A stretch of 64,000 nucleotides of DNA from Prorocentrum cordatum (Eukaryota), in contig CAUYUJ010000156.1 of assembly GCA_963575745.1 (NCBI GenBank), positions 1-64,000 of the forward strand. Reading direction: 5' to 3'. The notes below the pieces were generated by a model. It had not been told where the DNA came from. It worked only from the letters and a program-made list of their open reading frames with translations, and did no database searches. The translations under genes and the position numbers were made by a program. Shown here one piece after another: positions 48,849 to 58,719 of this stretch. Positions within the stretch are counted from its first letter, which is position 1. Every line of letters starts with the position of its first letter.

Positions 48849-51800
48849 TGGGCCCACCCAAGTTGGGGGTTCGACTCTCTGCGCAACCCCCTCCGGCCTG
48901 CGAGCCGAAGCCCCTGAAACCAGGTCGAAGTGAGACAAGCCTCTGATGGCTGCACCCGGCCGCCTTCGCGGGCGGGCGCGCGCGCAAGCTGGCGGCGCTG
49001 CAGCGCAGCGAGGAGACGAGGACTAGGAAGAGGAGGGGAAGGGAGGGGAAGAGAGGAGGAAGGAGACGAGGAGGAAGAGAGGAGGAAGAGCGGAGACGAG
49101 GAGGCGCAGCGAGGAGACGAGGAGAAGAGAGGGGAGGGAGGAGGACGAGGACGAGGACGAGGACGGGAGGCGACCGCTGCGCACGGCGCGCGGCGAGAAG
49201 AGCGCACGGGGCGAGGCCTCGGCCGCGGGGCGCAGAGCTCCGCCTTTGCCTCACGTCGGGCCCGTCCCTCTGCAGGGGGGATGTTCAAAGATAGCAACAA
49301 AAATACTCTGGGGACGATGTCTTGAGCATTTGTGTTGGTCATTTGGGGGTATTTGGGGGGCATTTGGGGTCCTTTTGTCCTCATTTTGGGGCAGTTTTGG
49401 GGTATTTTGGGGGTATTTTTGATTTTGGGGCATTTTTGCTGCACCTTTTGATATTTGGGGGTACTTTTGAGTATTTGTTGATCCTGTTGGGGGTATTTTT
49501 GGGGTACTTTTGCTTTTTCGTCCAAAATCCCCCTGCAGGGGGACAGGCTCGACTCAGGCCTTGCCCCCCTGGGCCCCCCCCCGCCTCCCCCCGCGCACGG
49601 CGCGAGGAGGAGGCGCCGGCGCCCGGCGCGGCGGCGGAGGGCGCCGCCCCCGAGCCGGGCGAGGGCGCCGCCGCCGCGGGGGAGGGCGGCGCGGTCGCGG
49701 AGAGCGACGGCGCGGAGGCGCCCCCTGGGCGTGGGAAAAGAGGGAGGGGCAGGCCCAGAGCAGTGCTTATGCATGTATTGTGCACTTGTCAAGCGCCATG
49801 CAAGTCACCTTACCAGCGTCCGGAAGAACGCACCCGCGCGTCTCCTCCTCCTCCTCCTCCTCCTCCTCCTCCTCCTCCTCCTCCTCCTCCTCCTCCTCCT
49901 CCTCCTCCTCCTCCTGCGCCTCCTGCTCCTCCCTGCCTGACCTCCCCCCCGCCCCCTTTCCCCGGAGGACTCCGCCCCGCCGCCCGAGCTGGAGCAGCCG
50001 CCGGCCTCCCCGGAGGCGCTGGCTGGCACTCCTGCCGCCGCGGCGGAGGAGGCCGCCGCACAAGGGGACGGCCAGGCGCTCTTCCTCGCCCCTCCCTCGA
50101 CCCCGATTTGTTCATTATTCTTTTTCATGGTTCTTCCTCTTCTTCTTCTTCTTATTATTATTATTATTCTTCCTCTTCCTCTTTCTCTTCCTCCCTCCCT
50201 TCTCCCTCCCTCTCCTTCCTCCTCGGCCTCCTCTTCCCCCTCCTCCACGAGCCTCCTCCCTCTCGTCCTCCTCCTCGTCCTCCTTCCCTTCCTCCCTCCT
50301 TCCCTTCCTGTCCCCCCTGTCCTCGAGGCCCGCGTCCATGCATGTTCCTTCTGGACGGCTCCTCTTGGTCGCACACCGAGGCCAATCGAAAGGGCGGGCT
50401 GGGCGTTGGGCCTGAGACTTCCTCACCAATTCTGACCCTGAAGCTTTACAGTCGGGGCCCTGGAGAAGGAACCCTTTTGGTTGGGGAGGGGCTCCGCGTT
50501 CCTTAAGTGTTTCACAGCTTGCCTCAGGTTTTCCTTATGTTTTCGATGGGAAATCGAAGGTTAACTTATGGAAAAAAGGGACCTCGTTCCTTATTTGGGG
50601 TTCCTTAGGCCAACGCCCCGACGGTAATTGACAGCAGCTTCACAGACGGAGGGCGGGTCGCTTCCAACATGTGGCTCTCGCCTCAGCGTCGCTCGCATTC
50701 GTCATGCGCATCGGCAAGGGTTTCACTGATTGTGGGCGGGCAGTTTTCCAGAGTGTGGCTCCTGCCTTAGCGCCGCGCCCACCCGTTTCAGGCATGTCCT
50801 AGAGCTTCACGGGTTGAGGGCAGGTGGTGTTCAACATGTGGTTCTCGCATTAGTGCCGCGCGCATTCGTGTCAAACATGCGTAAGCGTTTCGCTGATTGA
50901 TGGAGGTTCCTTCTCAACATGTGGCTATCGCCTCAGCGCCGCGCACCTCCACGTCAAACATCTGCAAGAGCTGCACGGATTGAGGGTGGCTCCTTTTCAA
51001 CATGTGGCTCTCACCTTAGCGCCGCGCACATTCGTCTTCAAAATTGCCAAGAGTTTCACGGATTCCCATGGTCAACGTGTCAGAAATAAGGTTTTGGATA
51101 TACTCTGGTTTGTGAGGGTGCATCAGTTATGTTAATTCGTGGTGAAGTCCTAGGAATGGTTTCTGGCACGGTTCCGGATCGTCAAGACGCAACAGCCATG
51201 TTGATTCGTGGCGTTGGAGTCCCGAGAATGTTGTTTTGGCACGCTCCAGGGTCATCAAACGGTTGTCTCCCAACGAGGCGGTTCCCACAGTGGAGATGAA
51301 CCCTTTTGGGGGCCTCTGAAGAGGGAGCTTGGAGGAAGGCTTTATTCCAACATCGTTGATGGGTCTTGGGTTCACGCTGGTCCTCCTCCTCCTTCTCCTC
51401 ATCGTCCTCCTCCTTTCTTCCCCTCCTCTCTCCCCCTTCTCCTCCTGCTCCTCCTCCTTCCCTGCTCCTCCGTCTCCTCTCCCTCCTCCTCCTCCTCCTT
51501 CTCCTCCTCCGAGCGTGCCGTCTGGCGCTCCCTCCGCCACAAGGTCATGGGCCCGCGCATGGAACGACAGGGGCTGCGCCTTCGCGAACCTGAGCCTGCT
51601 CTGGCGTCGTCCGCGACCCCGTGCCCCACCGGGGCACCGCCCTCGCAGCCTCCGCGCCGTCTCGGCCAAGGTCCCGCTGCAGTGCCTGCGCACGCCTTGT
51701 AATGGCCCGCCGCAGCCCTGCCGCTGCCACCTGGAGCGGGTGACCCGGCCCTGTCGGGCACCTCGTGCGCGAGCAGCAAAAGGGGCGCCAGCAGTGTCAG

Positions 51801-54800
51801 CCATCTGCTGGTCCCCCCTCTCGTCATCCTCCAGCATCGCGCTGGCGCCCTCCATCGCGCGGGTGACGGCAGCATGTCGCCAAGGAGAGTCATTGGCGCC
51901 TCTGCCCGAGCCGGAGAGGGCGTCCGCCTGCGGCTGCTGGAACTCGGCAGGTTGGCAAAGACGCCTCCTGCCCCATCGCAAGTTGTCCAGGTGCGTGGAA
52001 GTCTTAGCCTTGACCCCGCATTGCCGGCATTTCCATTCGCCGTGAACATCGGAACGCCAAAGGTAGTGGTGTAGTACTTGTGCCTGTTCCTTCACCTCCC
52101 TGTCCTTCGGCACTCGCACCTCTTGATCAACCATACCTTCAGCTGAAACAAAGGCGACTGAGAGTGGAACCCAAGAACCGTGCTCCCAACTTAGCTTGCG
52201 CAAGCGCCATCTTGAGCATGTCAATGTAGCCTTCCGCGTATCCCACACTGCGAGCGCCTCCCACAGCAGAGAATTCCGCCCAGGAATTGCCCAACACCTG
52301 GTCATACCGCACCGTGCTGTCCATATCGCATGCCACCGCAATATGATCGCAATGAGAATGGCACCAATGGAACCGTGGCGGCAACCGATCCATCTGCTCC
52401 AATCGTGTGCGTATACGCCTCCAAATGCTTGCATGCCGTGCGCCCGCAGCTGCATTCCACGGTGACCAGCGCTGGCCCTTATCCATCAGGCCTGACAAAT
52501 CCGTGACCACATCCAAGACGGGAGGATAGTGCCGCGGCGCCTGTGGGATGCAATACCGCTCCGCCGCGCCAATCGTCTGCTGCGCCCCTGGCAAGCCTCC
52601 GTAGATCGCTCTGGTGGGGTAGCCCTGAGGTGACATCTGTACTGCCGCCCATCCACGCCGCAGAAGTTCTGGAACTGGACGGGATGGCCGAGCCGTCTGT
52701 GAAGACCGTCGTAGGCCAGGTGCCAGTGTCGCTGCTCCAATCGCCCCAGCACTGCACATGTGGCGTCCAGCACCGCCATCCGGCAGTCGCCTGGCACGAA
52801 GGGCGTTCCAACACGTAGGTCGTAGCAGTCGTCAGTAACCAAAGGCGTCCGTAGAGTGCCGTGCTCCAATGCCGAGTCTCTGTACTTGATCGGCTCCTCA
52901 GGCGTCGGGTGGTCTTCCTCCTCCTCCAGAAGCTGGCGATTAGTAGCAGGGCAGCGGTAGCAGACGTGACCGATGCACTCCTCCTCAACACCACAGCCTC
53001 GGCACATGGTAGAGTCCGACTTGTAATGCTGGTGGAGCTTGACTTGCGTCCACGATGAACCAGACCATAACGATCATAAAGCCCCCGCCACCTTCGGGTT
53101 CTGTAGTGCTGCATGCCGACCTCCGACACAGGCTCGTAAACACCGTGCCCAGATATGGGTACCAGGATCCACGCCATGATGTTGTTGCACCCTTCGCGTC
53201 TGCCACCGCTGCATCCCGTGCCGCAACAGGTCTCGCATCGCCATTGGATCCAACCGTAATAGTGGTCAGGATTGCCCTTAAACGTCGCGTATCACAGTAC
53301 GGGAAATCATGAACCAGTCCACTCGTGCAAGCGATAGCTAAACCACCGCCAACGGCCCACGCGCATTCCTCCGAGATATCTGTTGGGTCCGTAGTACCTG
53401 CCGAGCCCGCTCCCACCGGCCCGAGCTGAAGGATTGATCCCAGATGGCCCGATGGCATGCAAAGAGCGGCGCGGTGGTGGCCTCAAAGATAGGGTCGTGC
53501 CAAGGATCCCCCCTGAGTAGCCAGTATAACGTGCTGCTACCACCTCGCCCAGCGCACCCTGTCATAATGGTAGCCGCCTGTCGTGACTCACGTAGCTCCG
53601 TGTCCGAAACACCGCTGACCGCGGCACCGTGTCCTCCCGATGGTAGTAACCCAGTCCTCCGCGGCTTCGTTACCAGTAGCCCTGCACTCAGCTTGAACTG
53701 CATAACGCGCCTCGGCCGTAGTTTGAGGACCAGATGCCGCTTGGCCGGAACGCCTCTCCGTATCATTCGCCCTTATAGCTCGTGCCCCAGGTTCCGTTTG
53801 TGTCTTTGTGGCGGGATCTTGCAGTAGTCTGACGCCGCGCGAGAAGCCTTAATCGCCGCCGCACTAGTAGCCGCGAACCCAGACCTGCTAGCTTGAATGA
53901 CCAGGCCCAACTGTTGCACATCCACAACGAACCCACGCAATGCCTTCCAGTACCGTCGTATCTGTGCTAAGTCCTGCCCCGTCCACTGGGCAGAAACGTT
54001 GTCCACCACAGCTCGCGGAATGGTAGCAGGAGAAGCCGACCATCGCATCGTCTTTGCAGTGTGCAACGTGAGTAACTGCGTGGACTGACTGAAACCCGCC
54101 AAGATCCCTTGCCAGGACTGGTAACATGTGGACAGTGACCCATCACACTGTATCGCCCTGGATTGCGTGTGGCACTGCAAGATCATCCAGGTCAAGCGCG
54201 CAGGAAAACCTTCTTCCATACTCTGCTGTAAGAGCGCCGAAGGTAGCACCGACTCAAAAGCCTTCCAGGCGCCCAACAGTGCAGTCACCGAGTGGTCCGA
54301 GAGTAAGTGGGCCACCTCCGCATGCAAGTTGCGATCGAATGCGGACGCGGTAGACGACCGCCCTGCACCTCCAATTCCCCAGATCTCCGCCACAGCCGCT
54401 TGCTGTAACCACTGCCGTGTTGCTGAAACGCGCGCGCAACTACAACCCGATCAATGTGTTGACCAAGCATATCAAGCGGCTACCTCCATCGGGTTTGCCC
54501 AATCTGACTAGGTGGTTGAGAATCCGCTGTGATGGCCAACATCCCAACTGCTCGCATCGGTTGTAGAGCGCAGCCAGGGCCTCCAACCCGATATCTGAAA
54601 CCTGCCACATGGCTCGCGGTGCGATACTTGTCTGTCCCGCAGAGGTAGTGCCAGGGAAGGTGAGGAGTGCCGTGTGCAACTGAGCCCCTGTGAGTGGTGG
54701 TAGCTGATTTCCTAGACCAAGCCCATCCGCTCTTGGTGGCCCAGTAAGCCCATGATGCGTCCAGACCGTCGTCCACTCGAGTAGTTCGCGATCGGCGACC

Positions 54801-58697: not shown

Positions 58698-58719
58698 CTT
58701 GAGCCACAATGGTCACGGA
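58698..58719 (-). other. Relict dinoflagellate spliced leader at the LINE 5' end
   Basis: Minus strand TCCGTGACCATTGTGGCTCAAG, 19/22 to DinoSL. Confidence 0.75.

What the first reader, a model, noticed from the sequence alone, without database searches (positions are those of the whole stretch)
51512..58719. A full-length LINE whose 5' end is a spliced leader
Seen: on the minus strand the element starts with a 19/22 DinoSL match (58719-58698) right at the edge of a (CCT)n tract, followed by ORF1 and ORF2 remnants; its 3' end also abuts (CCT)n. Established: dinoflagellate mRNAs receive this 22-nt leader by trans-splicing, and genomic SL relics mark retroposed mRNAs. Inference: the LINE RNA was itself trans-spliced and then reverse-transcribed to its very 5' end, so this family may use host trans-splicing instead of a promoter or ribozyme to define its 5' end, and may prefer (GGA)n sites.
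Basis: partly seen in the sequence, partly recalled or inferred. Interest (0 to 1): 0.78.

Follow-up and report, generated by a model that had tools for sequence, protein, structure and literature searches.

The report
Spliced-leader-headed LINE inside a GGA microsatellite
A dead 7.2-kb jumping gene in a dinoflagellate-type genome begins exactly with a worn copy of the short leader that these cells splice onto their messenger RNAs, and the duplicated insertion scar encloses that leader, so the element was copied into DNA from a leader-capped RNA.

Summary
[quoted passage not shown] No such match turned up in any of 100 shuffles.

What I added:
- **Insertion scar.** A perfect 26-nt direct repeat (58745-58720 and 51510-51485) brackets the unit, so the leader is the first base inside a target-site duplication. 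The element is 58719-51511, 7,209 bp.
- **One element.** A paralogous protein (P0151) aligns colinearly with both the ORF1-like part and the endonuclease. The 5' part therefore belongs to the LINE.
- **LINE identity.** ORF2 is homologous to dinoflagellate endonuclease plus reverse-transcriptase proteins.
- **Decay.** ORF2 has about 9-11 stops and several frameshifts, and two catalytic Asp residues are lost.

- The 3' 5 kb plus 2.6 kb of flank is triplicated in tandem at 99.9% identity.
- Two small repeats are nested in ORF1.
- Microsatellites lie between ORF1 and ORF2.

The claims that trans-splicing replaces a promoter, and that the family prefers (GGA)n, remain inference from a single insertion. 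Earlier notes of this scan report at least 8 similar leader-headed LINEs on other DNA of this genome. I found no paper passage stating it.

The parts
58720..58745 (-). Upstream copy of the 26-nt target-site duplication (GGAGGAGGAGAAGGAGGAGGAGGAGG), the last bases of a (GGA)n tract
   Evidence: the suffix of the upstream flank equals the prefix of the downstream flank for 26 nt. It is the only identical 26-mer pair among 31,242 placements in the two tracts. One search lists all occurrences in the window.
58698..58719 (-). DinoSL relic, 19 of 22, the first bases of the element
   Evidence: It is followed by TCCAAACC, not by the GT of an SL-gene intron (intron start as quoted in PMC12584245).
58470..58697 (-). 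5' UTR-like stretch, 228 nt, with no repeat or microsatellite in it
   Evidence: sequence; no similarity elsewhere in the window. That it derives from the LINE is not verified by any other copy.
57121..58469 (-). ORF1-like region. ATG at 58469, one frame change near 58257/58222, two nested repeats, stop at 57123-57121. Coiled-coil-like, with no Pfam family.
   Evidence: P0151 residues 2-296 align colinearly with 58328-57124 at 56-71% identity; no Pfam domain; no informative Atlas hit.
57777..57934 (-). Nested short repeat 1, absent from the P0151 protein; diverged copies at 17649-17810 and 3629-3718
   Evidence: 75-80% identity. (gap in the P0151 alignment); several in-frame GT/GC...AG removals are possible.
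57400..57613 (-). Nested foldback (hairpin) repeat 2, 214 nt, bordered by GT...AG; a copy lies at 15863-16077
   Evidence: nested inverted arms. (aligns to the other copy in both orientations). (removal restores the reading frame).
56325..57120 (-). Stretch between ORF1 stop and ORF2 homology, absent from the P0151 protein. It holds (AGG)n 56922-56830, segment A 56829-56672, (TCC)n 56671-56499, and the start of segment B.
   Evidence: A (56714-56808) is 71% identical to B (equivalent to 56375-56467)..
55571..56324 (-). ORF2 N-terminus and APE-type endonuclease remnant, with stops and a frame change
   Evidence: P0151 297-549, 58-67% identity. (long relatives); 8 of 26 relatives match Pfam Exo_endo_phos, best E 1.2e-10.
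52885..54847 (-). Reverse-transcriptase remnant. Motif A Asp is Gly and motif C reads VDN in place of VDD.
   Evidence: 195 proteins at E<=0.001.; profile's best PDB match is the R2 reverse transcriptase 8ibw, E 0.0012; 8 of 26 relatives match RVT_1, best E 4.4e-10.
52148..52766 (-). Conserved C-terminal ORF2 region (zinc-knuckle and RNase H-like in relatives)
   Evidence: e.g. P0009 1395-1580; weak zf-RVT, E 0.0068, in ORF 52486-53073. RNase_H in 1 of 26 relatives and zf-RVT in 1 of 26.
51511..52147 (-). 3' UTR-like end, with no poly(A); it ends ...GCACGCTC directly at the duplication
51485..51510 (-). Downstream copy of the 26-nt target-site duplication
33563..56494 (.). Three tandem copies of a 7,645-bp unit: ORF2 from segment B onward, the 3' end, the duplication copy and 2.6 kb of flank. 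Later than the insertion, or an assembly artefact.
   Evidence: 99.9% identity. (junctions share CCC). (11 differing alignment columns among the three units).

Best explanation
This is one decayed, structurally full-length non-LTR retrotransposon (LINE) of a dinoflagellate-specific group. It runs 58719-51511 on the minus strand and inserted by target-primed reverse transcription into a (GGA)n microsatellite.

Its template RNA carried the 22-nt spliced leader at its 5' end because it had been SL trans-spliced like a host mRNA. The reverse transcriptase copied it to the last base, so the leader became the first 22 bp inside the target-site duplication.

Shown:
- the leader relic;
- the 26-nt duplication that encloses it;
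- the same order of ORF1-like part and endonuclease in a paralog;
- homology to endonuclease/RT proteins;
- the decay of the copy.

Inferred:
- that trans-splicing, rather than another route, put the leader there;
- that copies depend on read-through transcription plus trans-splicing for their 5' end;
- that a leader ending in AG can itself serve as the next acceptor;
- that the family favours (GGA)n.

After insertion, two small repeats entered ORF1, microsatellites grew between ORF1 and ORF2, and the 3' 5 kb plus flank was triplicated.
For: 1. Leader: 19 of 22 match at 58719-58698. 0 of 100 shuffles gave any match with up to 3 mismatches.

2. Scar: the 26 nt ending at 58720 equal the 26 nt starting at 51510, including a GAA interruption at the same offset. 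This is the only identical 26-mer pair of 31,242 placements within the two flanking tracts.

3. One element: P0151 aligns in order to 58328-57124 (ORF1-like) and 56324-55571 (endonuclease) at 56-71% identity.

4. LINE identity:
- 195 proteins at E<=0.001 to the RT piece;
- long relatives cover 56139-52148;
- of 26 relatives, 8 match Exo_endo_phos and 8 match RVT_1;
- the best PDB match is an R2 reverse transcriptase;
- 7 of the 10 relatives looked up carry names, and all 7 are dinoflagellate proteins.

5. Trans-splicing rather than an SL gene or free SL RNA: the relic stops at the exon end and is followed by TCCAAACC, not the intron start GTACACATTGGG quoted in PMC12584245.

6. The ATG at 58469 is in frame with the ORF1-like homology, 228 nt after the leader.

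7. TE transcripts carrying spliced leaders are documented in Hydra (PMC12220107, passage).
Against: - No second copy's DNA could be seen, so the family's 5' end is not confirmed.
- The 370 nt between the leader and the first base matched by P0151 (58697-58329) is not verified as LINE sequence.
- The 26-mer also occurs at 17167-17142. Over all GA-tract pairs in the window, 0.85% of placements give identical 26-mers, or 0.02% for non-pure ones. In a microsatellite the scar is therefore good evidence, not absolute.
- The scar is perfect (0 changes in 52 nt) while the leader has 3 of 22 changes and ORF2 about 9-11 stops. This is a mild tension. The template may already have been defective, or some leader changes may predate insertion.
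- About 800 bp (57120-56325) between ORF1 and ORF2 is absent from P0151. It holds two microsatellites and a 71% duplicate of the ORF2 start. This could mean rearrangement or a composite origin.
- P0151 is a chimeric gene model with a partial thylakoid-formation domain at its end. It may have spliced across intervening DNA.
- The upstream flank is polypurine, a poor context for re-splicing at the relic.
Confidence: 0.75

Rival explanations
1. Chimeric or transduced 5' end. The body is the LINE, but the leader and some or all of the 228-370 nt after it come from elsewhere. One route is a host mRNA reached by RT template switching. The other is flanking DNA of the parent copy that lay between an upstream trans-splice acceptor and the LINE (5' transduction).
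For: P0151 homology starts only at 58328. Nothing else in the window or in the searches matches 58697-58329.
Against: The frame is open from the leader through the ATG at 58469 into the P0151-matched part. There is no break, microsatellite or repeat at a putative junction. Even in this case the template was a trans-spliced RNA.
Confidence: 0.12
2. Two separate events. A leader-headed retrocopy (58719 to about 56923, ending in (AGG)n) and a 5'-truncated LINE (56494-51511) landed side by side in a microsatellite-rich region. The 26-nt repeat is then a microsatellite coincidence.
For: Internal (AGG)n and (TCC)n tracts lie between the two parts. The tandem-unit boundary falls at 56494. The same 26-mer occurs in another tract. 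0.85% of tract-pair placements match by chance.
Against: P0151 carries both parts in the same order. Segment A, upstream of the (TCC)n, is homologous to the ORF2 start. The 26-mer match sits exactly at both ends, 1 of 31,242.
Confidence: 0.06
3. The leader is an inherited, DNA-encoded relic that was already mutated in the parent. The template RNA started at it, with the relic acting as a start site or core promoter element, rather than receiving a fresh leader.
For: 3 of 22 leader mismatches against a perfect 26-nt scar. Song et al. 2017 (PMC5585692, passages) report relic motifs retained where a promoter is expected.
Against: There is no evidence for transcription starting at relics. The numbers are small: at about 3-6% divergence, my own arithmetic gives both observations individual probabilities of roughly 0.03-0.2.
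Confidence: 0.05
4. The RT switched template onto free SL RNA at the end of the LINE RNA, as in U6-L1 chimeras (recalled).
For: SL RNA is abundant. The leader lies at the extreme 5' end.
Against: The junction is exactly the exon end. No SL intron sequence follows.
Confidence: 0.02

Closest known systems
DinoSL-relic retrocopies or 'recycled' cDNAs of dinoflagellates. Song et al. 2017, PMC5585692, and Song et al. 2018, PMC6050394 (passages read). Slamovits and Keeling 2008 only as cited in those papers.
   Same: A DNA-encoded leader relic at the 5' end marks reverse transcription of a trans-spliced RNA.
   Different: Here the retrocopied RNA is the retrotransposon itself, with a target-site duplication that encloses the leader. 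The passages read say the mediator of retroposition is unknown. PMC6050394 favours an LTR element, and PMC5585692 only notes enrichment of 'RNA-dependent DNA replication' among leader-tagged genes. This copy has one leader and no truncated second relic.
Spliced-leader-bearing transposon transcripts in Hydra (PMC12220107, passage read)
   Same: Transposon RNAs use the host's SL trans-splicing.
   Different: That is RNA-level evidence in an animal. The passage does not describe leaders fixed at the 5' ends of genomic LINE copies.
LINEs whose 5' end is set by RNA processing of a co-transcript (R2 with an HDV-like ribozyme), or by an internal promoter (L1Tc Pr77; PMC1874656, search listing and start of abstract only). 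The R2 ribozyme is recalled.
   Same: The element needs a way to define its 5' end without carrying upstream DNA.
   Different: The processing here would be host trans-splicing, not a self-cleaving ribozyme or an internal promoter. This was not tested.
Microsatellite-specific LINEs of insects (R1-clade Waldo, Mino, Kibi, Koshi; recalled) and SL-gene-specific LINEs (SLACS, CZAR, CRE, NeSL-1; recalled)
   Same: Insertion within a simple repeat; an association between a LINE and spliced leaders.
   Different: Only one insertion was seen here, so specificity is unproven. The SL-gene-specific elements insert into SL genes, whereas this one carries a leader as its own 5' end.

Membership tests
Non-LTR retrotransposon (LINE) with APE-type endonuclease | Reverse transcriptase of non-LTR type | tested here: met
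   The window piece 54450-53773 has 195 homologs at E<=0.001. 8 of 26 long relatives match Pfam RVT_1, best E 4.4e-10. The profile's best PDB match is the R2 RT, E 0.0012. The window fragments themselves fail Pfam. Catalytic residues are lost in this copy.
Non-LTR retrotransposon (LINE) with APE-type endonuclease | Endonuclease/exonuclease/phosphatase domain N-terminal to the RT | tested here: met
   Relatives' endonuclease parts align to 56139-55324. 8 of 26 relatives match Exo_endo_phos, best E 1.2e-10.
Non-LTR retrotransposon (LINE) with APE-type endonuclease | No terminal repeats; flanked by a target-site duplication | tested here: met
   Self-comparison shows no LTR or TIR at the ends. 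A 26-nt direct repeat sits exactly at both ends, with the caveat that it lies in a microsatellite.
Non-LTR retrotransposon (LINE) with APE-type endonuclease | 3' tail (poly(A) or short repeat) and many dispersed, often 5'-truncated copies | tested here: inconclusive
   There is no poly(A). The 3' end meets the (GGA)n duplication directly. No genome is held. One paralog is known through P0151.
Named LINE clade (L1, I, R2, etc.) | Placement in an RT phylogeny with reference clades | not tested
   No reference RT set was at hand. Long relatives find no PDB RT by phmmer.
L1-type ORF1 protein | Coiled coil plus RRM/CTD or zinc knuckles | tested here: inconclusive
   No Pfam family in the ORF1-like pieces or in P0151 1-300. 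The Atlas gave nothing above chance level. The coiled-coil character is by eye only.
DinoSL-relic retrocopy | Close match to the 22-nt leader at the 5' end of the transcribed unit, not part of an SL gene | tested here: met
   19 of 22, 228 nt upstream of the first in-frame ATG, with no GT intron start after it.
DinoSL-relic retrocopy | Transcripts of the locus or family carry the leader | not testable with these tools
   No sequencing run was listed.
Microsatellite-specific LINE | Independent copies repeatedly inserted in the same repeat, in one orientation | not tested
One insertion, with a (GGA)n duplication. GA/CT tracts cover about 7% of the window.

The most novel reading that the evidence does not exclude
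Dinoflagellate LINEs of this group have no promoter of their own. Each copy is read through from upstream, and host trans-splicing cuts its RNA free. The leader copied into DNA ends in AG, so it hands the next generation a ready-made acceptor at the same base, which makes the 5' end self-renewing. The same enzyme, able to copy leader-capped RNA to its last base and to integrate in (GGA)n, would be the long-sought machine behind the thousands of leader-tagged retrogenes.
Probability: 0.3. Interest if true: 0.8.

Novelty: new variant of a known kind. Interest (0 to 1): 0.6.

Why it matters
More than a fifth of genes in some dinoflagellate genomes carry leader relics (PMC5585692, PMC6050394, passages). 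Yet PMC6050394 states that the element mediating their retroposition is unknown, and it favours an LTR element.

A LINE that carries the leader as its first bases inside its own insertion scar shows two things. A LINE-type enzyme in these cells copies leader-capped RNA to the very end. It then integrates the copy by target-primed reverse transcription.

This makes the source of retrogenes testable. It also raises a concrete question about how a promoter-less element is re-expressed in a genome that relies on trans-splicing.

Tried and rejected
- Whole genome: none is held.
- Sequencing runs for 56900-58725: none was listed, and no RNA holder was listed.
- Metagenome scans with an RT alignment and an ORF1 alignment: pattern matches, but no relative. 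A first RT alignment was too diverse to search with.
- Viral contigs with P0151 1-535: nothing.
- Earlier findings by sequence or near this place: nothing.
- Protein searches: the ORF1 C-terminal piece found only P0151. P0151 1-300 found only itself. The 178-aa leader-proximal ORF found nothing.
- Pfam on window fragments: only sub-threshold hits.
- N-terminal extensions of ORF2 relatives against 56100-58760: nothing significant.
- Shared 3' tail between the LINE, the 31144 unit and the stretch before the internal (AGG)n: scores no better than shuffles.
- Target-site duplication for the second relic: none found.
- SL gene reading: rejected, because no intron start follows either relic.
- A bacterial-type promoter and terminator scan near the 5' end is not applicable to this organism and found nothing.
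- Pfam on 51 other long ORFs of the window: 0 hits.
- PDB phmmer with two long relatives: no RT hit.

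
Full report
**Observation.** On the minus strand, 58719-58698 reads TCCGTGACCATTGTGGCTCAAG. This is 19 of 22 against the dinoflagellate spliced leader, with mismatches at positions 6, 7 and 13. Allowing 3 mismatches, the window holds two matches; the other is at 31144-31165 on the plus strand. In 100 dinucleotide-preserving shuffles the mean was 0.00 and the largest 0. The relic touches a (GGA)n tract (58720-58964) with no base between them. Only one relic is present, with no truncated second copy after it.

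Neither relic is followed by GT. PMC12584245 quotes the SL gene as leader-GTACACATTGGG (passage). Here TCCAAACC follows the first relic and AGCTACAG the second. So these are not SL genes.

**What follows the leader.** The RT-like piece 54450-53773 found 195 proteins at E<=0.001, of which 54 reached 1e-10.
- Long relatives align by tblastn over 56139-52148 only, in the order endonuclease, RT, C-terminal region. They match nowhere else in the window except the two tandem duplicates.
- Of 26 long relatives, 8 match Pfam Exo_endo_phos (best 1.2e-10), 8 match RVT_1 (best 4.4e-10), 1 matches RNase_H and 1 matches zf-RVT.
- A profile of the RT part hits the R2 reverse transcriptase best in the PDB, weakly, at E 0.0012.
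- Of 10 relatives looked up, the 7 that carry names are all dinoflagellate proteins.

The window copy is dead.
- Against P0017 and P0009 it shows 9 and 11 in-frame stops, and three changes of frame between successive aligned pieces.
- The Asp of the LDxxKAF motif is Gly, and VDD reads VDN. Naming these as RT motifs A and C is from memory.

**Does the 5' part belong to the LINE?** The one informative hit was P0151, 638 aa. It aligns in order to 58328-58257, 58222-57935, 57776-57617, 57303-57124, 56324-56136 and 56139-55571, at 56-71% identity. In a paralog, therefore, the ORF1-like part and the endonuclease lie in the same order in one predicted protein.

Two caveats apply. P0151 is a chimeric gene model that ends in a partial thylakoid-formation domain. 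It may also have spliced across intervening DNA.

The ATG at 58469 is in frame with this homology, 228 nt after the leader. The ORF1-like part has no Pfam family, and the Atlas gave nothing useful.

**The insertion scar.** The 26 nt that end at 58720 (GGAGGAGGAGAAGGAGGAGGAGGAGG) are identical to the 26 nt that start at 51510, directly after the 3' end ...GCACGCTC. The match includes a GAA interruption at the same offset.
- Among all 31,242 placements within the two flanking tracts, this is the only identical 26-mer pair.
- Over all pairs of GA tracts in the window, 0.85% of placements match; for non-pure 26-mers the figure is 0.02%.
- The same 26-mer also occurs at 17167-17142, and in the two tandem duplicates.

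I read this as a target-site duplication that delimits one insertion, 58719-51511 (7,209 bp), with the leader as its first base. There is no poly(A).

**Later changes.**
- *Tandem triplication.* 33563-56494 is three tandem copies of a 7,645-bp unit at 99.9% identity, with 11 differing alignment columns. The unit starts exactly at the edge of the internal (TCC)n and includes 2.6 kb of downstream flank. The junctions share CCC. It is a later segmental triplication or an assembly artefact.
- *Nested repeats in ORF1, both absent from the P0151 protein.* Repeat 1 is 57934-57777, with copies at 17649-17810 and 3629-3718. Repeat 2 is 57613-57400, a 214-nt foldback with a copy at 15863-16077. Repeat 2 has GT...AG borders, and removing it restores the frame. 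PMC10666404 (passages) reports introner elements with inverted repeats in a related genome.
- *Extra stretch between ORF1 and ORF2.* 57120-56325 is also absent from P0151. It holds (AGG)n, a 158-bp segment, (TCC)n, and the start of the ORF2 N-terminus. The 158-bp segment contains a 95-bp stretch (56714-56808) that is 71% identical to the stretch just after the (TCC)n.

**Mechanism.** The exact exon boundary and the enclosing duplication fit the following route. A LINE RNA is trans-spliced like a host mRNA, then copied to its 5' end and integrated by target-primed reverse transcription into a (GGA)n tract.

Still inferred:
- that copies rely on read-through plus trans-splicing instead of a promoter;
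- that the relic's terminal AG can serve as the next acceptor;
- that the family prefers (GGA)n.

GA/CT tracts cover about 7% of the window, so one hit is weak evidence of preference. That both leader relics in the window abut such tracts is suggestive.

**A mild tension.** The duplication has 0 changes in 52 nt, while the leader has 3 in 22. By my own arithmetic this is unlikely but not excluded at 3-6% divergence. The template may already have been defective.

**Literature.** Searches, and passages, gave no statement that dinoflagellate LINEs begin with the leader.
- Song et al. 2017 (PMC5585692) note that 'RNA-dependent DNA replication' genes are enriched among leader-tagged genes.
- Song et al. 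2018 (PMC6050394) call the mediator unknown.
- A Hydra paper (PMC12220107) reports leaders on about 30% of TE Iso-Seq reads.
- Supplements were not read.

**Earlier notes of this scan.** They list at least 8 leader-headed LINEs on other pieces of this genome, unchecked by me. This scan has therefore found the same kind of thing before on other DNA.

Noticed in passing
window 31144-31165 (+), with flanks 30540-31135 and 32508-32702: A second DinoSL relic (19 of 22) lies one base after a 600-bp (TCC)n tract. It heads about 1.36 kb of non-LINE sequence that runs up to a (GGA)n tract. No target-site duplication and no similarity to the LINE 3' end were found. Positions 31297-31476 repeat at 89% identity in the flank of each tandem unit.
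   Followed up: partly
window 33563-56494: A threefold tandem repeat of a 7,645-bp unit at 99.9% identity. Its boundary lies at the edge of an inverted pair of microsatellites, (AGG)n 56922-56830 and (TCC)n 56671-56499. This could be a breakpoint caused by hairpin or triplex DNA, or an assembly artefact.
   Followed up: partly
window 57400-57613 and 15863-16077: A roughly 200-bp foldback repeat with AGGCCT ends that aligns to its other copy in both orientations. Within the LINE it has GT...AG borders, and its removal restores the frame, so it is introner-like.
   Followed up: partly
window 57777-57934, 17649-17810, 3629-3718: A second short dispersed repeat (75-80% identity). It carries GTAAGT and a pyrimidine tract followed by AG. 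At 15.8-17.8 kb it lies in the same order and orientation relative to the foldback repeat as it does inside the LINE.
   Followed up: no
window 19067-24165: About 5 kb of a 12-bp satellite (ACCACCAGCACA and its complement), in two blocks of opposite orientation.
   Followed up: no
window 27103-29993: Three copies of about 940 bp at 97-99% identity, one of them inverted relative to the other two. They are built of 11/21/32-bp CCAAGA-GGCC-type subrepeats.
   Followed up: no
whole window: No Pfam domain in any of 51 other long ORFs. About 46 GA or CT tracts make up 7% of the sequence. The region looks gene-poor and repeat-rich.
   Followed up: partly
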